IMG/VR virus record: IMGVR_UViG_3300029234_000076
Reading direction: 5' to 3' (one strand)
Origin: a virus
Taxonomy: Duplodnaviria > Heunggongvirae > Uroviricota > Caudoviricetes
DNA length: 6,914 bases
Under the pieces are notes generated by a model that was not told the origin of the DNA, ran no database searches, and saw only the letters and a list, made by a program, of their open reading frames with translations. Shown one piece after another: positions 347 through 6,899 of this stretch (position 1 is the first letter of the stretch; the number at the start of each line of letters is the position of its first letter). Both the position numbers and the translations under genes were made by a program.

Positions 347-805
347 TTATTTCAGGCATTGCGTCCTGATGTATTCCTGCAGGTAGTTAACCTGCGCGGT
401 TATCTTGTCGATTCCACTTCGGAGACGGTAATAATTGAGTTCAGCATCTGCTGTAAGTCCTGGGCTTTCTCCATCGCCCATGCCGCTGGCTCCGGTCGTT
501 GACTTTGCACAGGTGGCGGCGACTTGCAGGCGCTTACGCCCAGCAGAAACATCAGCACGGAGACTTTCGATAGTCGCGTTAGCATCAGCAAGCTCCTTTG
601 TGTATCTTGCATCGAGTTCTGCTACATCACGTTGACGCTTCCGCATGTCAGCGATGGTGGCGTTCGCCTTCTCCAGTTCTCTGACATTTTTGTCGCGCTG
701 GGCTTTGTAGGTAATGGCGTTATCACGGTAATGATTAACAGCCCATGACAGGCAGACGATGATGCAGATAACCAGAGCGGAGATAATCGCGGTTACTCTG
801 CTCAT
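347..805 (-). CDS. Rz: Rz i-spanin (inner-membrane spanin subunit), lambda Rz-like
   Basis: The translation [40 protein letters not shown]... matches the lambda Rz N-terminus as I recall it, with an N-terminal TM helix and a C-terminal region ending QCLK. The ATG at 803-805 overlaps the endolysin TGA stop (802-804) as ATGA; the listed ORF start at 817 is four codons upstream and less likely. Confidence 0.85.
400..585 (-). CDS. Rz1: Rz1 o-spanin (outer-membrane lipoprotein), embedded in Rz in the +1 frame
   Basis: The ORF lies wholly inside Rz in another frame. An internal Met at 583-585 is preceded by AAGGAG with a 7-nt spacer. The product [33 protein letters not shown]... has a lipoprotein signal peptide with a lipobox (VSAC) and a proline-rich mature part, typical of Rz1. 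Confidence 0.75.
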
Positions 806-1299
806 TGTTTCCCCCACAAACAGACTTCACGCTCAATCTCACGGCGAGTCATCAGTCCTTTCCATTGATTACCGCCAGCGTATGTCCAGCGCCGTAGCTG
901 ATCACATGCGCCTTTGATATCGCCCTGGTTTATTTTGCGAAGAAGCGTCGATGTTCTGAAATTGCCAGCACCCACGTTGTAAACGAATGAGTAAAGAGCG
1001 CCGCGCGTTGTTTCCGGTATATCGACTTCGATGTACGGGTTAATTTGTCTGGCGACAGTGGCAAGGTCTTTATTCAAGAGTGCTTTGCATTCTGCTTTGG
1101 TATACGTTTTACCGAGCATGATGTCTTTTCCTGTATGCCCGTGACATACAGTCCATACACCAACAATATCTTTATATGGTATGTAGCTGACACCTTCCAG
1201 ACCATCGTCACCACTCGGACCAGTGATGAGCACAGACGCTATGGCAACAGCCCCACCACCAATAGCAGCTGCTACAGCCTTGCGTAATGATGGCGACAT
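802..1299 (-). CDS. R: SAR endolysin (phage 21 R-type lysozyme, T4-lysozyme-like muramidase)
   Basis: 165 aa. The N-terminus [20 protein letters not shown] is a Gly/Ala-rich signal-anchor-release segment, followed by [25 protein letters not shown] (lysozyme catalytic region). It is near-identical to P21 R / DLP12 RrrD as recalled. Its start shares one nt with the S stop. Confidence 0.9.
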
Positions 1300-1514
1300 T
1301 ATTCACCTCTCGCAGCCTTACGCTTATCTTCTTTAATCTTGAAATAAAGGTTTGTCAGGTACGTCAGCAGGCCAAATACCAGGCTACCCAGCACTCCAAT
1401 TGCCGCCCACTGTGAGGGCGTGACTTTATCTAGCAGCTGTAAAAACCAGTACCCGGCACTACCTGCTGAGGTGCCATAGGCGACACCCGTTGTTAACTTA
1501 TCCATGGATTTCAT
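1299..1514 (-). CDS. S: Pinholin (phage 21 S21-type class II holin) with dual-start motif
   Basis: 71 aa, MKSMDK... (Met1 and Met4 dual start, antiholin/holin), with two TM segments (TMD1 Gly/Ala-rich SAR-like, TMD2 [18 protein letters not shown]) and a charged C-terminus [13 protein letters not shown]. Strong SD GAGGTGG upstream of the ATG at 1512-1514. Confidence 0.9.
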
Positions 1515-1625
1515 AACCCCACCTCGCAGACAAAGCGGGTGTAAATTGAGGGAATACTACGAAACGTAACAGACTCGAAGTCAGTGAATAACTCAGGTAT
1601 TGGGTTATCAGCTAATATCGAGACT

Positions 1626-1659
1626 CAAAAAATGGAAAAACCCGCTCGACGGCGGGTTT
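1626..1659 (-). terminator. Putative intrinsic terminator on the late-gene strand about 110 nt upstream of S (tR'-like candidate)
   Basis: On the minus strand: stem aaacccgc / gcgggttt (plus 1652-1659 and 1638-1645) with a 6-nt loop, followed by UUCCAUUUUUU. The position relative to S parallels lambda tR' upstream of S. Confidence 0.35.
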
Positions 1660-1699
1660 AAGCTGTGTGACGAAGTAACCACTCTTAACAGCATAACCA

Positions 1700-2087
1700 A
1701 TTTTTTACGTACGTAAACCACTAAATGATATTTGCGAGAATGCTACCGAGTATTGAAAACACCACTACAAATACATAAGCAAATCTCAACAAATAACCAA
1801 CAAATAATTTCCAGTGTTATTTTTAGCCGATTTAAATTGAACCTTCAAATTATAGAGCACTTATAAATAACAACCGTTAGTATAAATTGGCTAATAGATT
1901 TATTTTTATTCAGCCAAGAGCTATGAATAGGATTCGATAGAAAAAAGTTCAGATAAAAATAGAGATCTACTTCACAAATCAAACGAGAAACCAAAACTTA
2001 CATCTTGAAATAATCACATTGATTAGATGAATATTTATCGCGCAGTGACATCATTTTTTAATAATAGTTCAAAAAAAAGGGCTCACG
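1700..2087 (+). promoter_or_regulatory. AT-rich upstream regulatory region and promoter of the porin gene (exact -35/-10 not resolved)
   Basis: About 390 bp, very AT-rich, with no ORF of meaningful size, immediately upstream of the porin ATG. SD AAGGG lies 7 nt before the ATG at 2088. It contains an OmpR-box-like sequence at 1996-2021 (see findings). Confidence 0.4.
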
Positions 2088-3170
2088 ATGAAAAAATTAA
2101 CAGTGGCAATTTCTGCTGTAGCTGCATCAGTACTGATGGCGATGTCTGCTCAGGCAGCTGAAATTTATAATAAAGACAGTAACAAGCTGGATCTGTACGG
2201 GAAAGTTAATGCTAAGCACTACTTCTCCTCTAATGATGCAGATGATGGTGATACTACTTATGCCCGTCTTGGCTTCAAAGGTGAAACCCAAATCAACGAT
2301 CAACTGACTGGTTTCGGTCAGTGGGAATATGAATTCAAAGGCAACCGCGCTGAATCTCAAGGTTCTTCCAAAGACAAAACCCGTCTTGCATTTGCAGGCC
2401 TGAAATTTGGTGATTACGGCTCAATCGATTACGGCCGTAACTACGGTGTAGCATACGACATCGGTGCGTGGACTGACGTCCTGCCAGAATTCGGTGGTGA
2501 TACCTGGACCCAAACAGATGTGTTCATGACTGGTCGCACTACTGGTGTTGCAACTTATCGTAACAACGACTTCTTTGGTCTGGTCGATGGCCTGAACTTT
2601 GCTGCTCAGTATCAGGGTAAAAATGACCGCACTGACGTAACTGAAGCCAATGGTGATGGTTTCGGTTTCTCCACTACTTATGAGTATGAAGGATTCGGCG
2701 TGGGTGCAACCTATGCTAAATCAGATCGCACTGACGGTCAGGTCGCCTATGGTAAGAGCAAATTCAATGCCTCCGGCAAAAATGCGGAAGTATGGGCTGC
2801 AGGCCTGAAATATGATGCGAACAATATCTATCTGGCTACCACATATTCTGAAACTCAGAATATGACCGTTTTTGGTAATAACCATATTGCAAACAAAGCA
2901 CAAAACTTTGAAGCAGTAGCACAATATCAGTTTGACTTCGGTCTGCGCCCATCTGTTGCTTACCTTCAGTCAAAAGGTAAAGACCTTGGTGTTCATGGTG
3001 ACCGAGACTTAGTCAAGTATGTCGATGTCGGTGCTACTTACTACTTTAATAAAAACATGTCCACTTTTGTTGATTACAAAATCAACTTAATTGACGATAG
3101 TAAGTTTACCAAAACAGCTGGTATTGATACTGATGACATCGTTGCTGTAGGTCTGGTTTACCAGTTCTAA
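2088..3170 (+). CDS. nmpC: General bacterial porin, OmpC/OmpF/PhoE family; prophage-borne NmpC/Lc/OmpD-type
   Basis: 360 aa. Signal peptide [23 protein letters not shown]|AEIYNK, conserved porin motifs ([60 protein letters not shown]-terminal VGLVYQF). Oriented opposite to the flanking phage genes and visibly lower in GC than its neighbours. Confidence 0.9.
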
Positions 3171-3332
3171 TCTGATTACGAAAAAGATATGTTGCGGGAG
3201 GCGTTGCCTCCCCAACATATAAGTGGCTCCCTCAAGCCACTTCCTTTAGAAGCACAACCTTGCTTCTAACTATATAAACCTTCTGTTATATATTACCCTT
3301 TATTTTTGGGGGCGTCTCAACGCCCCATTTTT
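3171..3332 (+). ncRNA. ipeX: Structured 3' UTR of the porin gene, IpeX-like sRNA element
   Basis: Four consecutive stem-loops directly after the porin stop: 3187-3220 (15-bp stem with one bulged C), 3221-3242 (8-bp stem), 3246-3269 (9-bp stem), and 3308-3326 followed by a U-tract. This matches the published description of ipeX as lying in the untranslated region between the nmpC/lc stop codon and its rho-independent terminator. Exact 5' end unknown. Confidence 0.5.
3308..3332 (+). terminator. Rho-independent terminator of the porin / IpeX-like transcript
   Basis: Stem ggggcg (3309-3314) / cgcccc (3321-3326), loop tctcaa, followed by auuuuu (3327-3332). The U-tract is on the plus strand only. 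Confidence 0.7.
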
Positions 3333-3359
3333 AATAATTTTTAGTAAACAATTGGCATA

Positions 3360-3743
3360 TTAATTAGAGTTATTAACAACGATATCCATCTCTAACCAGA
3401 TATCTAATGCCATTAACATCCCTTCAATTATGCCCTCAGCTTTTTGTAACCTTTTCCCGATATAACCATCAGAGCAGCAATGCTTACCTGCCAGTGACAT
3501 GAATGTCATACCGACTACATAATAATCTACTAATAAATCGTGCAAATCGCTGTTGTTCTTTTTCAGACGGGCCATGCACCCGCAAATGATCATCGCGTCA
3601 TCGTCACAACATTGCGGGCGAGATTTTACTTTTGAAGGAATTAATCCCTTAAAACCGGCGGCAATGGACGACCAGGTCACATCTTCATGATTATTAGCCG
3701 CCCACGCTCCCCAACGCTCAAGAACCATCTGAATATCACGCAT
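3360..3743 (-). CDS. Q: Late-gene antiterminator Q (phage 21/82-type, QuuD-like)
   Basis: 127 aa from the ATG at 3741-3743: [24 protein letters not shown]...[16 protein letters not shown]...HCCSDGY, with Cys clusters consistent with the zinc-binding Q family. It sits in the classical position upstream of the lysis genes. The ORF-track start at 3758 is a TTG five codons upstream; the ATG is preferred. Confidence 0.85.
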
Positions 3744-3760
3744 CAACTTTCTCCACAAAA

Positions 3761-4756
3761 TCAGGCCAGCACACCAATCGTCAGCGCACGATCGATAAAA
3801 CGAAATATCAGCTCCAGCTGGGAGCCATACTTCTCTTCGAATGCCACATTATCCGCATGCAGCTCGTCGTGATGCTTTCTGCACAAAGGCAACACAAAGA
3901 GGTCATGCGCTTTTGTCCCCATTCCACCCTGACCGTGGCCTATCAGGTGGTGGGGATCATCAGCAGGTTTTCCACAACATGCGCACGGCTGCGTCTTAAC
4001 CCATCGCGTGTACTTTTCATTAACCCAGCGGCGACGTTTTGGGCGTAACATAAAAGAGTCCGGCGACTCCGGATCCACTTTCAGCGCCAGCACCTTTTTC
4101 GCTTTATCCTGGATGATGCTGGTGGCAGGAACCGAAGGCACCAGGTCACTTTCCCGGGTGACAGACGGCACAACAGGCTTCGGTAATCTCAGTGCCTTAC
4201 GGGCTGCACTTTCCGGTAAGGCATCCGCCAGATCATTACGAATCAGCCACCAGCACAGTTCCGGCATTGTCACAACGTGACTGTCATCAAAACCGAGATC
4301 CCGACGCACAACAGACAACACCCAGCGGGCACAGTTATCCGTTGCCATTGATTCCAGCCGTTCCGTGAACTGATCGCGCAGTTGGTTATCGCAGTGCCAG
4401 CACAGACGGATTGCGCCCGGCGCGTGTCGCATTGTGGTCATGTTCTCGCTGTGCCAGTCGGAATGAGGCCACTGGCAGCCTTTTTCACGAAGTAACCAGC
4501 TTTCAAGACATTCCACGCCACCAGCACGACGGATCACTGCCTCATTGCGGAACACGGCCCGAACGGCAGGATCATCCGCCAGCGGTTGTGATGCAGCCGG
4601 AACGGCACCACTGGCAAAAGATGAATAACGTTCCGGCTCAGGCTCCAGCAGGACACGCCCCTGCATAAACAGGGGCATCAGCTCTGAACCTGGCCTGAAC
4701 AATACGATCCCCATACGCGGGGCAATTTCAGGGGTCAGTAGTGCTCTCACGGTCAC
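3761..4756 (-). CDS. DUF968-like prophage protein (Qin YdfU-type) with C-terminal HNH-like Cys/His motif
   Basis: 331 aa. The C-terminal region [43 protein letters not shown] has a C-x2-C...HH...CxxHH arrangement reminiscent of HNH/zinc-ribbon nucleases. The start is GTG at 4754-4756 (or GTG at 4748-4750), one nt after the upstream gene's stop, suggesting translational coupling. Family assignment is from memory. Confidence 0.7.
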
Positions 4757-4757
4757 C

Positions 4758-5567
4758 TCAATGAACGGTATCGAGCAGCTTTAACAGCTCAGGGAATCGG
4801 GATTCGAAGAAATGCGGCTGCGTCTCGCGCGGATTTGCGGGACTGGTGATGTTCTTGCCGAACATGCAGCCTTTCGCTGTCAGCGACCAGAATTTTTTGA
4901 TGTTGTTAATCGCGGTACGGCTGTATCGTTCGCGTTGTTCAACGATCCCCAGCTTCGCCATCTGGTGATATGCCTGATTAGCCGTCAGGCGGATACCATA
5001 CTGCTTCAGCAGTGCACTCAGCGACAGCGTGGGGCGGCTTGAGCCATCAGGCGCGTCAGCAGGTGCATCAATGGCATAGCGCGGTGCCAGATTCGGTAAG
5101 CCAACAGCCTCCTGGAGTTTCTGACAGGCCCCAAGCACAGATGAGTTAGACAGATTTAACTCCCGGCGCATAAAGTCCAGCAGAATCACGCCAGCCTGCA
5201 TCTTGTCAGCAGCCTGTCCGGATAACTTTTCCGGCGCGCTGGTTACCATATCGAAAGTACGGATCACCTTCAGATGGAATGACGGGCTGATCCACATTGC
5301 ATAGGCATACACCAGTTCCTTACAGACATACGTTCCCCGTTCATTTCCCCCATGAATCACGCTCACCGGGTCAACACCCAAATTCTGGGTGTTGGTTAAT
5401 TCATGAACAAGCTCAACAGTTTGTTGGCTGGAAAGAAACTTTCCTGGCTCCTTGGTTCTGGCATTTGCACCAGATGCTACTGCTGCGCGATGCAGATCGT
5501 TCAGGCTGTAACGCCCATAAGCATCACGACGAACTTCAATACCATCAATGACCATCAGATTATTCAT
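4758..5567 (-). CDS. KilA-N domain protein with C-terminal ANT/KilA-C-like region (putative antirepressor)
   Basis: 269 aa. N-terminal MVIDGIEVRRDAYGRYSLNDLHRAAVASG...ERGTYVCKELVYAYAMWISPSFHLKVIRTFD fits KilA-N. The C-terminal part (LLKQYGIRLTANQAYHQMAKLGIV...KKFWSLTAKG) resembles the ANT/KilA-C DNA-binding module. Strong SD AGAGGAG upstream of the ATG at 5565-5567. Confidence 0.8.
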   Translation of the reverse strand: MNNLMVIDGIEVRRDAYGRYSLNDLHRAAVASGANARTKEPGKFLSSQQTVELVHELTNTQNLGVDPVSVIHGGNERGTYVCKELVYAYAMWISPSFHLKVIRTFDMVTSAPEKLSGQAADKMQAGVILLDFMRRELNLSNSSVLGACQKLQEAVGLPNLAPRYAIDAPADAPDGSSRPTLSLSALLKQYGIRLTANQAYHQMAKLGIVEQRERYSRTAINNIKKFWSLTAKGCMFGKNITSPANPRETQPHFFESRFPELLKLLDTVH

Positions 5568-5586: not shown

Positions 5587-5976
5587 TCAGGCAGCTGCAC
5601 CCGCCGTTTTCTCGTACTTACTGATAGTGATCTCGACCTTCCCTTCCGGGATAACCGGTCCCCACTCCACCAGCATTCTTTTCACCTGACTGTCGTCTTC
5701 CCACACCCCCGCGTGGGTCAGGGCGTCAAACAGCGCCTTGTTATAGTTGTCCAGATCGCGGATCCTGTTATCCGGAGGAAACAACACGATCTCCACTGAA
5801 GCAGGTGCCGACGTTGGTTTCGGCAGACGACGTAACTGCTCAACTATTGCTGCGCACGCCGCGCTCTGGAATTTTCGCCCCGCCGCGCTTATCAGGCTCT
5901 TACCAGCAAACGCCCCTTTGTTGGGGTGTCGCCAGTACGTGTTCACGCTGGGCGGAAAAGGCAGGATCAGCTTCAT
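5587..5976 (-). CDS. rusA: RusA-family Holliday junction resolvase
   Basis: 129 aa. The motif pattern LPFPPSVNTYWRH...RDLDNYNKALFDALTHAGVWEDDSQV parallels E. coli RusA (LPWPPSNNRYYRH...[26 protein letters not shown]). The start ATG overlaps the upstream gene's TGA (ATGA at 5973-5976). Confidence 0.85.
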   Translation of the reverse strand: MKLILPFPPSVNTYWRHPNKGAFAGKSLISAAGRKFQSAACAAIVEQLRRLPKPTSAPASVEIVLFPPDNRIRDLDNYNKALFDALTHAGVWEDDSQVKRMLVEWGPVIPEGKVEITISKYEKTAGAAA

Positions 5977-6299
5977 ACTTTCAGGCCCCTCTCATGTAAC
6001 CAGTGGGCTGCACGCAGCCTTGCGTTTTCCTCACCGGCAAGCAGTGAGCGGATAATCCCGACCGCCTCGCTGTCGTCGTCCTTCACCGCGGTATGAAGCG
6101 TGATGCCCCGGGCCACGCCACGCTTTATCGTGATGACGCCTTTTTTCTCCAGTGCGCGAAGATGCTCCACCGCTGCATTCACTGAACGGTATCCCAGCAT
6201 GGTTGCCACCTCCTGATTGGTTGGCGGGAAGCCACGTTCTTTCTGATAAGAAATCAGCATATCCAGCACCTGCTGCTGGCATTGAGTTAACGTCGTCAT
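5973..6299 (-). CDS. LexA N-terminal DNA-binding-domain-only protein (no S24 peptidase domain)
   Basis: 108 aa. Residues 1-68 align by eye with the E. coli LexA N-terminus at roughly half of positions, including the recognition-helix region (RSVNAAVEHLRAL versus LexA RSPNAAEEHLKAL) and the GxxRGI wing. The remaining ~40 aa show no peptidase S24 motifs. ATGA overlaps at both ends (6296-6299 and 5973-5976). Confidence 0.7.
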   Translation of the reverse strand: MTTLTQCQQQVLDMLISYQKERGFPPTNQEVATMLGYRSVNAAVEHLRALEKKGVITIKRGVARGITLHTAVKDDDSEAVGIIRSLLAGEENARLRAAHWLHERGLKV

Positions 6300-6899
6300 G
6301 CCGCCATCTCCCTGACCAGTTTTTCTGCCTGCTGGCGAACCTGCGCCAGAAAGGCCTCACCACATGCCTCAAGTTCATCGCGCCCGATGTAGCTGATTGC
6401 CGGTCCCTTCCAGGTCTTGTCGAAAACAGCAATAGCACCAGCGAAGAAAGCGCCTGTCGGCACCTGCTTCTCATCCTTCGGGATAAACCAGGCAGGCAGT
6501 TCAAAACCAATACGCCCGCGAATAAAAGCAATATGATCTGCATCTTCCGGCCACCACACTTGCTGGTGGCAGCTTTGATCAGGAAAACATAGCGCCCGCC
6601 TTTATCACGCATGGCACTGGCATGCTTCATGATGTAACGCATGCCGGTGATGTATTGCCCCTCATGCTGACTGGCGCGGCTGTATGGGGGATTACCAAAG
6701 GCAGCACCTTTAAGCTCCGCAAGGCGTTCTGACCAGTCATGCGCCAGCGCGTTGTCTTCCGCCGTGTAATACGCAGCACATTTGGCGTTATCACCGTCAG
6801 TGAACAGATCCAGAACAAACGGGCCAAACAGGGTGTTAATTGAACCGCCCCGGGTTTCCTGGAGAGTGTTTTATCTGTGAACTCAGGCTGCCAGATCAT
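6296..6899 (-). pseudogene. Phage N6-adenine DNA methyltransferase (Dam-like, NPPY motif), apparently split over three reading frames
   Basis: My manual translation gives MIWQPEFTDKTL (frame A from ATG 6897-6899), then ...SINTLFGPFVLDLFTDGDNAKCAAYYTAEDNALAHDWSE...FGNPPYSR...GGRYVFLIKAATS (frame B, about 6870 to 6562), then WWPEDADHIAFIRGRIGFELPAW...VREMAA (frame C, 6559-6296). The FGPF...NPPYS...WW...FIRGR order is that of phage Dam-like methyltransferases as I recall them. Frame junctions fall in short G/C runs (about 6855-6868 and 6560-6570), so this is either a genuine pseudogene or homopolymer sequencing error. Confidence 0.5.

What the first reader, a model, noticed from the sequence alone, without database searches (positions are those of the whole stretch)
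1515..3359. Oppositely oriented, AT-rich porin moron inserted between Q and the lysis cassette; late transcription must run antisense through it
Q and S/R/Rz are all on the minus strand but are separated by about 1.8 kb carrying a plus-strand porin gene with its own AT-rich promoter region and its own terminator, the classic moron signature. If the Q-dependent late promoter lies next to Q, antiterminated late transcripts would cross the porin gene antisense before reaching S. That would make porin (and IpeX-like RNA) expression and lytic late transcription mutually interfering. If instead the late promoter lies in 1660-2087 just upstream of the candidate terminator at 1626-1659, Q must act at a distance of nearly 2 kb from its own gene. 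Either arrangement is unusual relative to lambda and is testable.
Basis: inference. Interest (0 to 1): 0.5.

Follow-up and report, generated by a model that had tools for sequence, protein, structure and literature searches.

The report
Porin moron between Q and late promoter
This is the well-known DLP12/qsr'-type lambdoid late-control module, in which a porin gene sits backwards between the Q antiterminator gene and Q's own late promoter; the promoter lies just upstream of the lysis genes, so late transcription does not run through the porin gene.

Summary
Q (3360-3743, -) and S/R/Rz (347-1514, -) are separated by a plus-strand OmpC/NmpC-type porin gene (2088-3170). The porin has a 29% GC upstream region and its own terminator.

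The headline interpretation is not supported: late transcripts need not cross the porin antisense. Window 1636-1718 (minus strand) is homologous to the annotated pR' promoter, qut and first terminator of Stx phages 933W and VT1-Sakai. The 933W Q protein is 78% identical to this one. A published dRNA-seq start site in Sakai is consistent with that promoter.

The late promoter therefore lies about 170 nt upstream of S and back-to-back with the porin promoter region: -35 TTTACG 1717-1712, -10 TATGCT 1695-1690, start about 1685, terminator 1659-1626. Q acts in trans on it from 1.65 kb away.

The whole module is collinear with quuD-nmpC-essD-rrrD-rzpD of E. coli K-12 DLP12 (91-99% identity) and occurs in many isolated phages.

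In 100 IMG/VR loci that carry this pR' motif together with a Q homologue, Q and pR' are adjacent in 24 and 0.6-2.4 kb apart in 76. The gaps mostly hold low-GC genes on the opposite strand. The -35/spacer sequence co-varies with the Q clade.

Verdict: already known and ordinary.

The parts
3360..3743 (-). Q antiterminator gene (QuuD/Q933-type, Q21 family)
   Evidence: PF06530 E=5e-53. 78% aa identity to 933W Q. 98.6% nt identity to K-12 quuD and its 3' flank. Distant match to the Q21 structures 6p18/6jnx, E=1.4e-7. A Q21 fragment also hits PF06530.
3180..3220 (-). Terminator-like hairpin on the Q strand: a 15-bp stem with one bulge, then CUUUUUC, ending about 10 nt before the porin stop codon. 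It would stop unmodified read-through out of Q.
   Evidence: RNA fold of 3245-3170 (-): -34.8 kcal/mol, z = -5.7. The function is inferred.
3171..3343 (+). Porin 3' untranslated region with three hairpins and the porin terminator (stem 3309-3326, T-run to about 3343). It is the counterpart of the nmpC-quuD intergenic region of K-12, where IpeX RNA is reported.
   Evidence: Terminator scan and fold. The region falls within the 98.6% identical stretch shared with K-12 and has the same 189-bp intergenic length. The IpeX location is from memory of Castillo-Keller et al. 2006 and was not verified here. No Rfam family matched.
2088..3170 (+). OmpC/NmpC/Lc-type general porin gene (the moron cargo)
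   Evidence: PF00267 E=2e-151. NCBIfam porin OmpC subfamily, 521 bits. 91% nt identity to K-12 nmpC, which is IS5-interrupted there. GC 0.436, GC3 0.391.
1723..2087 (+). AT-rich (29% GC) porin upstream/regulatory region, divergent from pR'
   Evidence: Composition. The exact porin promoter was not located.
1690..1717 (-). Late promoter pR': -35 TTTACG (1717-1712), 16-nt spacer, -10 TATGCT (1695-1690). Candidate Q-binding element ACGTACGT+AAAAAA at 1714-1701.
   Evidence: Aligns base-for-base with the annotated pR' of 933W and VT1-Sakai, TTTACG-16-TATCAT. The Sakai dRNA-seq start site (258 nt upstream of the mapped 3' end, PMC7547250) is consistent with that promoter by my coordinate estimate. 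The -35/spacer sequence co-varies with Q clade across 63 distinct promoter variants.
1667..1687 (-). Predicted transcription start (about 1686-1684) and conserved initial transcribed block TAAGAGTGGTTACTTCGTCAC. It covers the position annotated 'qut' in 933W and is the likely sigma-dependent pause / Q-loading region.
   Evidence: Invariant AAGAGTGGTTAC across the window, cdtI, 933W and VT1-Sakai. It occurs once in the window even with 3 mismatches allowed (expected 0.01). The pause function is inferred from the Q21 model.
1626..1659 (-). tR'-like intrinsic terminator, the only one between pR' and S. The predicted unmodified transcript is about 58-60 nt.
   Evidence: Terminator scan and fold. 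Homologous to the first annotated terminator after pR' in 933W and VT1-Sakai.
1515..1625 (-). Leader between tR' and the S start codon
   Evidence: Read from the sequence. No further terminator was found.
347..1514 (-). Lysis cassette: S (1299-1514), R (802-1299), Rz (347-817), with an embedded Rz1-like lipoprotein ORF (about 400-585)
   Evidence: Pfam PF04971, PF00959 and PF03245. The 400-612 ORF contains a lipobox-like LLGVSAC. Collinear with essD-rrrD-rzpD/rzoD of K-12.

Best explanation
The region is a DLP12/qsr'-type late-control module. The gene order in the late direction is Q, then a backwards porin moron, then pR'-qut-tR', then S-R-Rz.

Q is made from the early (nin-region) operon on the minus strand. 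As a diffusible protein it loads onto RNA polymerase paused just after initiating at its cognate late promoter pR' (-35 at 1717-1712, -10 at 1695-1690, start about 1685). That promoter is about 170 nt upstream of S and 1.65 kb beyond the Q stop codon. The Q-modified polymerase reads through the terminator at 1659-1626 into S, R, Rz and the rest of the late operon.

The porin gene and its AT-rich control region lie upstream of pR' and point the other way. The porin promoter region and pR' are therefore divergent, and Q-dependent late transcription never enters the porin gene. A terminator-like hairpin on the Q strand (3220-3180) and the porin's own terminator (3309-3326) separate the convergent Q and porin transcripts. 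This lets the prophage express the porin, and the IpeX-like 3' RNA, during lysogeny.

Shown here: the homology, the positions and the comparative co-variation. Inferred: promoter activity, pausing, Q loading and termination efficiency in this particular element.
For: 1. Window 1636-1718 (-) aligns at 77-78% identity with the annotated pR' promoter, qut and first terminator of 933W and VT1-Sakai. Both promoter hexamers are conserved in position: the -35 hexamer TTTACG is identical, the -10 is TATGCT here versus TATCAT in 933W, and the spacer is 16 nt in both. A 12-nt initial transcribed block is invariant.
2. The Q proteins are 78% identical. In 933W the Q stop codon overlaps pR'.
3. dRNA-seq and Term-seq in Sakai Stx phages place the pR' start 258 nt upstream of the mapped 3' end (PMC7547250). 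By my coordinate estimate this falls 5-7 nt after the annotated -10.
4. The motif occurs only once in the window. No promoter-like site lies between Q and the porin on the minus strand.
5. Of 120 IMG/VR loci with the motif, 100 have a PF06530-type Q upstream on the same strand. Nineteen of the other 20 have less than 1.6 kb of upstream sequence. The gap from Q stop to -35 is 2 bp or less in 24 loci and 0.59-2.4 kb in 76.
6. The -35/spacer sequence co-varies with the Q clade whatever the gap length. This fits the Q21 result that positions -40 to -1 of pR'21 supplied all the native promoter sequence on a template that still gave Q-loaded complexes.
7. Phage mEp460 shares the S gene but has a different (Qin-type) Q and lacks the motif.
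8. The same module occurs in isolated phages (Kati, mEp332, ev099, 4A7, 1W, 3W, PhiR49_1), so it supports lytic growth.
Against: - No transcript data exist for this element. Promoter, pause site and QBE are assigned by homology and co-variation only.
- The -10-like pause element is weaker here (TTACTT/TACTTC) than in 933W (TACATT).
- In Sakai Stx phages the mapped pR' transcript ends at a second terminator 258 nt downstream, not at the hairpin homologous to 1659-1638. The termination efficiency of that hairpin, the only one here, is therefore unproven.
- The invariance of the initial transcribed block in the survey is partly by construction, because I searched with that motif.
- Work on DLP12 that I could not read (Rueggeberg et al. 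2013, 2015) describes Q- and RpoE-dependent control of the essD promoter. A reporter paper (PMC7918800) numbers its fragment -121 to +650 with a forward primer inside nmpC, and I could not reconcile that numbering with a start at about 1685.
- Early-operon transcripts that escape or are antiterminated past 3220-3180 could still cross the porin antisense after induction.
Confidence: 0.88

Rival explanations
1. The Q-dependent late promoter lies immediately downstream of Q (3171-3359), as in lambda. Antiterminated late transcripts would then run antisense through the porin gene before reaching S.
For: Canonical Q cassettes place pR' directly after Q. 933W and 24 of 100 surveyed loci do so.
Against: - There is no homology to the cognate pR'/qut in 3171-3359. 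The single motif copy is at 1667-1687.
- No sigma-70-like site lies on the minus strand in that interval.
- The interval instead holds a terminator-like hairpin on the Q strand and the porin terminator.
- The Q-clade-specific -35/spacer sequence is at 1701-1717.
Confidence: 0.03
2. The pR'-like segment at 1626-1718 is an inactive relic. The lysis genes would then be driven mainly by other promoters (for example the host RpoE-dependent control reported for DLP12) or by early-operon read-through. Q would be dispensable or non-functional in this element.
For: - DLP12 is a defective prophage whose lysis cassette is reported to respond to RpoE and Hha as well as Q (PMC7918800).
- The window carries a frameshifted Dam-like gene, which hints at decay.
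- The pause-element match is weak.
Against: - The identical pR' segment is kept in K-12 and in many isolated phages with intact Q.
- Q-clade and promoter co-variation across 63 variants argues for continued selection on the pair.
- The cited DLP12 literature itself lists the Q-type antiterminator as a regulator of the cassette.
Confidence: 0.06
3. Antisense transcription of the porin does occur on induction, but it comes from the early operon (pR, N-type antitermination) reading out of Q rather than from the Q-dependent late promoter. This would shut off porin/IpeX expression at the lytic switch.
For: All genes from 6559 down to Q are co-oriented on the minus strand and point into the porin 3' end. 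Antiterminated early transcripts of lambdoid phages ignore intrinsic terminators (general knowledge). This reading is compatible with the best explanation and is not exclusive of it.
Against: A strong terminator-like hairpin sits between Q and the porin stop codon. The early promoter and any N/nut system lie outside the window, so this is untested.
Confidence: 0.35

Closest known systems
DLP12 (qsr') cryptic prophage of E. coli K-12: quuD - nmpC - essD - rrrD - rzpD/rzoD
   Same: Same gene order and strands. 98.6% nt identity over Q plus the Q-porin intergenic region, and 91% over porin, upstream region, pR' and lysis genes. The 107-nt pR'-tR' segment is identical.
   Different: K-12 nmpC is interrupted by IS5, whereas the porin here is intact. 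The neighbouring nin-region genes differ (DUF968, KilA-N and a LexA-like gene here).
pR'-qut-tR' of Stx phages 933W / Sp5 / VT1-Sakai (Q933 allele)
   Same: Homologous Q (78% aa). Homologous promoter with the same -35, the same 16-nt spacer length, a related -10, an invariant initial transcribed block and a homologous first hairpin terminator.
   Different: In the Stx phages pR' overlaps the end of Q with no insertion. Q there carries about 17 extra C-terminal residues. The transcript continues to a second terminator (258 nt, the StxS precursor) and then to tRNA and stx genes. The window has only the first terminator, followed directly by S.
Phage 21 Q21 / pR'21 antitermination cassette (structures 6P18, 6JNX)
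   Same: Same Pfam family PF06530. The expected mechanism is the same: Q binds a QBE in the promoter region, loads onto a sigma-dependent paused complex, and forms a nozzle at the RNA exit channel.
   Different: Only distant sequence similarity (E=1.4e-7 over about 80 residues). The QBE sequence of this clade is not experimentally defined.
Phage PA-2 lc porin gene (lysogenic conversion) and the moron concept of Hendrix and colleagues
   Same: A porin gene carried in the Q-S region of a lambdoid phage and expressed from the prophage. It is an autonomous transcription unit with deviant base composition. (From memory of Highton et al. 1985, which is listed in the reference list shown, and of Blasband et al. 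1986; neither paper was readable here.)
   Different: No PA-2 sequence was retrieved, so identity to lc was not measured.
Phage cdtI Q region
   Same: Homologous Q (50% aa). Two opposite-strand ORFs follow, then the same pR' initial transcribed block and terminator (96% identity over 56 bp).
   Different: The cargo differs (two unknown ORFs rather than a porin). The -35/spacer sequence differs (GCGGTCCGCAAA), matching its different Q clade. Further genes, including a DNA methylase, lie between tR' and S.

Membership tests
Lambdoid Q antitermination cassette, Q21 family (PF06530) | The Q protein belongs to the family | tested here: met
   PF06530 E=5e-53. Q21 chains 6p18/6jnx match at E=1.4e-7. 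A Q21 fragment, 933W Q and cdtI Q all hit PF06530.
Lambdoid Q antitermination cassette, Q21 family (PF06530) | A sigma-70 late promoter with a cognate Q-binding element in the promoter region | tested here: inconclusive
   TTTACG-16-TATGCT is homologous to the annotated pR' of 933W, and a published Sakai start site is consistent with that promoter. A palindrome plus A-tract in the -35/spacer region co-varies with the Q clade.
Lambdoid Q antitermination cassette, Q21 family (PF06530) | [quoted passage not shown] | tested here: inconclusive
   The conserved block AAGAGTGGTTAC lies at about +1 to +12. The -10-like hexamer is good in 933W (TACATT) but weak here (TACTTC/TTACTT).
Lambdoid Q antitermination cassette, Q21 family (PF06530) | An intrinsic terminator between pR' and the late genes | tested here: met
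   Hairpin 1659-1638 plus a T-run to 1626, and the only such site before S. Its efficiency was not tested.
Lambdoid Q antitermination cassette, Q21 family (PF06530) | pR' immediately follows the Q gene (the canonical layout) | tested here: not met
   1.65 kb separates the Q stop codon from the -35. The same is true of DLP12 and of 76 of 100 surveyed loci, so adjacency is not universal in this family.
Moron (autonomous accessory transcription unit in a phage genome) | Absent from otherwise homologous phages at the same junction | tested here: met
   933W, VT1-Sakai and 24 IMG/VR loci have Q abutting pR'. The breakpoints are at about 1719 and about 3385-3410.
Moron (autonomous accessory transcription unit in a phage genome) | Deviant base composition | tested here: met
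   The insert is 39.5% GC against flanks of 49% and 53%. Its upstream region is 29% GC.
Moron (autonomous accessory transcription unit in a phage genome) | Has its own promoter and terminator | tested here: inconclusive
   The terminator is present at 3309-3326 (+). No consensus promoter was detected in 1723-2087 by the simple scan. Expression from the prophage is known for nmpC/lc only from literature that I could not read.
DLP12/qsr' Q-nmpC-lysis module | Collinear, high-identity match to K-12 quuD-nmpC-essD-rrrD-rzpD | tested here: met
   98.6% identity (window 3129-3778) and 91% identity (536-3095). The only difference in order is the IS5 insertion in K-12.
IpeX small RNA | Sequence match to the K-12 nmpC-quuD intergenic region | tested here: met
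   The 189-bp intergenic region lies within the 98.6% identical stretch. No Rfam model exists or matched. The IpeX coordinates were recalled from memory, not verified.

The most novel reading that the evidence does not exclude
In the Q21/Q933/DLP12 family, the junction between the Q gene and its cognate pR' is a general insertion hot spot for low-GC accessory cargo pointing the opposite way. The cargo includes a porin, unknown membrane proteins and candidate anti-phage genes such as PDC-S20 and an HNH PDC-M68A-like protein.

Insertions would be tolerated there because Q acts in trans and the site lies upstream of the late promoter. Cargo placed there is expressed in lysogeny and is never crossed by Q-modified polymerase.

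A short palindrome plus A-tract at the -35/spacer region that co-varies with the Q clade would be the specificity element (QBE) of each clade.
Probability: 0.7. Interest if true: 0.35.

Novelty: already known. Interest (0 to 1): 0.15.

Why it matters
For this window the result removes an apparent paradox. The phage does not fire its late operon through a convergent host-like gene, because the moron sits in a transcriptionally quiet slot between the regulator gene and the regulator's target promoter.

The practical consequence is for annotation. In Q21/Q933-family prophages pR' should be located by its conserved motif, not by its proximity to Q.

The side observation could guide searches for prophage-borne defence and conversion genes. 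It also gives a sequence-based prediction of Q specificity classes. I could not establish whether this hot spot has already been described.

Tried and rejected
- **Rfam:** a scan of the whole window at E<=1 found nothing, so there is no curated family for IpeX or for the pR' leader.
- **Promoter scan:** the simple consensus scan missed pR' (it scores 8/12, below the tool's 9/12 threshold) and found no porin promoter. The promoter was located by homology instead.
- **Unavailable papers:** Rueggeberg 2013, Toba 2011, Highton 1985 and Castillo-Keller 2006 are not held in the library. What I say about them rests on citations in other papers or on memory.
- **Q21 papers:** the pR'21/QBE sequences appear only in figures, so I made no direct comparison with pR'21.
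- **DLP12 reporter primers (PMC7918800):** the forward primer maps to 2141-2160, inside the porin signal-peptide codons. The reverse primer has no exact match. The published '-121 to +650' numbering could not be reconciled with any single start site, so I dropped it as evidence.
- **Hot-spot literature:** a search for a described Q-proximal hot spot found nothing specific.
- **StxS:** I considered and rejected the idea that the pR' short RNA here is an StxS homologue. StxS derives from the second-terminator region of Stx phages, and homology with the window stops at the first hairpin.
Full report
**1. Observation.**
The window carries a run of minus-strand genes:
- a Dam-like fragment;
- a LexA-DBD protein (5973-6299);
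- RusA (5587-5976);
- KilA-N (4758-5567);
- DUF968/HNH (3761-4756);
- Q (3360-3743, PF06530, E=5e-53).

A plus-strand porin follows (2088-3170; PF00267 E=2e-151; NCBIfam porin OmpC subfamily). Then come three more minus-strand genes: a phage-21-type holin S (1299-1514), lysozyme R (802-1299) and Rz (347-817).

The porin upstream region 1723-2087 is 29% GC and the porin is 43.6% GC. The flanks are 49% and 53% GC.

There is a terminator-like hairpin on the minus strand at 1659-1638 with a T-run, and one on the plus strand at 3309-3326.

**2. Where the late promoter is.**
I searched the S-proximal intergenic segment (1515-1760, minus strand) against phage genomes. Query positions 43-125 (window 1718-1636) match a segment that is annotated 'promoter | terminator | Q | other' in 933W, VT1-Sakai and phi24B.

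In 933W the annotated features are pR' (TTTACG-16 nt-TATCAT), a qut site and a rho-independent terminator. The pR' -35 overlaps the last codons of Q. VT1-Sakai is annotated the same way.

The four-way alignment of the window, cdtI, 933W and VT1-Sakai shows the following:
- TTTACG-16-TATGCT in the window, aligned with TTTACG-16-TATCAT in 933W and VT1-Sakai (cdtI differs in this promoter part);
- an invariant AAGAGTGGTTAC block after the -10 in all four;
- a conserved terminator hairpin.

The window Q is 78% identical to 933W Q. The 933W record itself notes similarity of its Q to that of DLP12.

Sy et al. 2020 (PMC7547250) mapped the pR' start by dRNA-seq at 258 nt upstream of the Term-seq 3' end in both Sakai Stx phages. 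Counting back from the second terminator in the Sakai sequence puts that start 5-7 nt after the annotated -10. This is my own estimate, because the genome coordinates in the paper differ from the RefSeq version I read.

Transferred to the window, the elements on the minus strand are:
- -35 at 1717-1712;
- -10 at 1695-1690;
- start at about 1686-1684;
- terminator hairpin at 1659-1638, with a T-run to about 1626.

The motif TAAGAGTGGTTACNTNGNCAC occurs once in the window even with three mismatches allowed (expected 0.01). The Q-porin intergenic region has neither that motif nor a promoter-like site on the minus strand.

**3.
The late promoter lies on the S side of the porin, back-to-back with the porin's AT-rich upstream region. 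Q-modified transcripts therefore start about 170 nt upstream of S and run away from the porin.

The title claim of obligatory antisense transcription is not supported.

The 1.65 kb between the Q gene and its target raises no mechanistic difficulty. Q is a protein that recognises a QBE at the promoter and loads onto the paused polymerase.

**4. The insertion.**
Relative to 933W, DNA homology runs through Q to window 3411. Protein similarity continues to about residue 125, near 3385. Homology resumes at 1718.

About 1.67 kb therefore lies where 933W has only about 90 bp, the last codons of its Q. This segment holds a new short Q C-terminus, the 189-bp 3' region, the porin and its upstream region. 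That, together with the base composition, meets the moron criteria.

On the Q strand, a 15-bp bulged hairpin followed by CUUUUUC (3220-3180) sits between the Q stop codon and the porin stop codon. Together with its neighbouring hairpin it folds at -34.8 kcal/mol, z = -5.7. It would stop unmodified read-through out of Q.

The porin's own terminator is at 3309-3326. The two convergent transcription units therefore overlap only within the 3' region of about 150 nt, which corresponds to the K-12 nmpC-quuD spacer. From memory, that spacer is the reported location of IpeX RNA.

**5. It is the known DLP12 module.**
K-12 MG1655 has quuD(+), nmpC(-, interrupted by IS5) and essD-rrrD-rzpD/rzoD(+) within the annotated DLP12 prophage.

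The window is collinear with it, at 98.6% identity over 3129-3778 and 91% over 536-3095. The 107-nt pR'-tR' segment is identical in K-12.

In the E. coli collection, 194 genomes cover at least 80% of the window. The Q-porin-S-R-Rz block is also present in many phages deposited as complete genomes, including PhiR49_1, Kati, mEp332, ev099, ev017, ev207, 4A7, 2G7b, 1W and 3W.

The DLP12 literature cited in PMC7918800 already lists the Q-type antiterminator as a regulator of this lysis cassette.

**6. Comparative survey.**

In 100 of them a PF06530-type Q lies upstream on the same strand. Nineteen of the other 20 have less than 1.6 kb of upstream sequence, and one (L064) has 3.9 kb and no Q hit.

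The distance from Q stop to the -35 is 2 bp or less in 24 loci and 0.59-2.4 kb in 76. Thirty-five of the 76 carry the porin together with a detectable Q. They fall among the 38 loci with gaps of about 1.63-1.65 kb, three of which hold other cargo.

Among 16 non-porin gap classes, 14 have their long ORFs on the opposite strand, and gap GC is 0.31-0.42. Two gap ORFs match PADLOC candidate defence families: PDC-S20 at E=1e-177, and PDC-M68A/HNH at E=7e-27. Phage cdtI is an annotated example with two opposite-strand ORFs.

The 63 distinct promoter variants show that the -35/spacer sequence tracks the Q clade whatever the gap length:
- window-type and 933W-type Q: TTTAC(G/A)(TA/AT)CGTAAAAA;
- cdtI-type Q: GCGGTCCGCAAA;
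- more distant clades: ACGCGTACGCAAAAA, TGTTATAACAAAAA, TGGAATTCCAAAA and TTCGTTACGAA.

A short palindrome plus an A-tract at this position is a plausible QBE. It fits the Q21 result that positions -40 to -1 of pR'21 were the only native promoter sequence on a template that still yielded Q21-loaded complexes.

Phage mEp460 shares S with the window but has an unrelated Qin-type Q, and it lacks the motif.

Two caveats apply to this survey. The loci are motif-selected and partly redundant. The invariance of the motif itself is by construction.

**7. What remains uncertain.**
- No transcript data exist for this element.
- The -10-like pause hexamer is weak here.
- In Sakai phages the mapped transcript ends at a second terminator rather than at the hairpin homologous to 1659-1638. 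The strength of the only terminator here is therefore inferred.
- After induction, early-operon transcripts could still read antisense into the porin if they are antiterminated. This would be independent of Q and cannot be assessed from the window.
- Additional host-dependent promoters reported for DLP12 (RpoE) could not be placed.

**8. Verdict.**
The arrangement is already known as DLP12/qsr' and is widespread. Interest is low for the finding itself. The hot-spot and QBE co-variation side observation is modestly interesting.

Noticed in passing
IMG/VR loci L008-L127 (for example L026, L054, L050, L013, L115); cdtI L002 3241-4629: In this Q family the gap between Q and its pR' is highly variable, from 0 to 2.4 kb. 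It usually holds low-GC genes on the opposite strand. Two of the gap ORFs match PADLOC candidate defence families: PDC-S20 (E=1e-177) and PDC-M68A/HNH (E=7e-27). The junction looks like an accessory-gene or defence hot spot.
   Followed up: partly
window 1701-1717 (-) and the aligned positions in 63 promoter variants: The -35/spacer of pR' carries a short palindrome plus A-tract (ACGTACGT-AAAAAA here) whose sequence changes in step with the Q clade. The downstream block AAGAGTGGTTAC stays fixed. This is a candidate Q-binding element that would define specificity classes.
   Followed up: partly
window 3180-3220 (-) and 3309-3343 (+): The two convergent terminators are interleaved. The Q-strand hairpin lies closer to the porin, and the porin terminator lies closer to Q. 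The two transcripts would therefore overlap by about 150 nt, exactly in the IpeX-like 3' region.
   Followed up: partly
window about 6555-6565 (-): The Dam-like N6-adenine methyltransferase gene is frameshifted relative to the intact 217-aa gene of phage PhiR49_1. The N-terminal part continues in another frame (ORF 6031-6642). This is either prophage decay or a sequencing error.
   Followed up: partly
L005 / L007 (Sakai Stx phages) versus window 1638-1659: In Sakai Stx phages the pR' transcript mapped by Term-seq ends 258 nt downstream, at a second terminator. It does not end at the first canonical-looking hairpin, which is the only one conserved in the window. Either very short products escaped detection or this hairpin terminates poorly.
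   Followed up: no
L064 (IMGVR_UViG_2698536522_000001), motif at 3949 in oriented coordinates: This is the one locus with the pR' motif and 3.9 kb of upstream sequence but no detectable Q homologue. It may have a larger insertion, a divergent Q or an orphan promoter.
   Followed up: no
window 2141-2160: The forward primer used in PMC7918800 to clone the 'DLP12 promoter region' anneals inside the porin signal-peptide codons. That reporter therefore contains the whole divergent porin control region as well as pR'. The paper's -121/+650 numbering does not fit a single start site that I could identify.
   Followed up: partly
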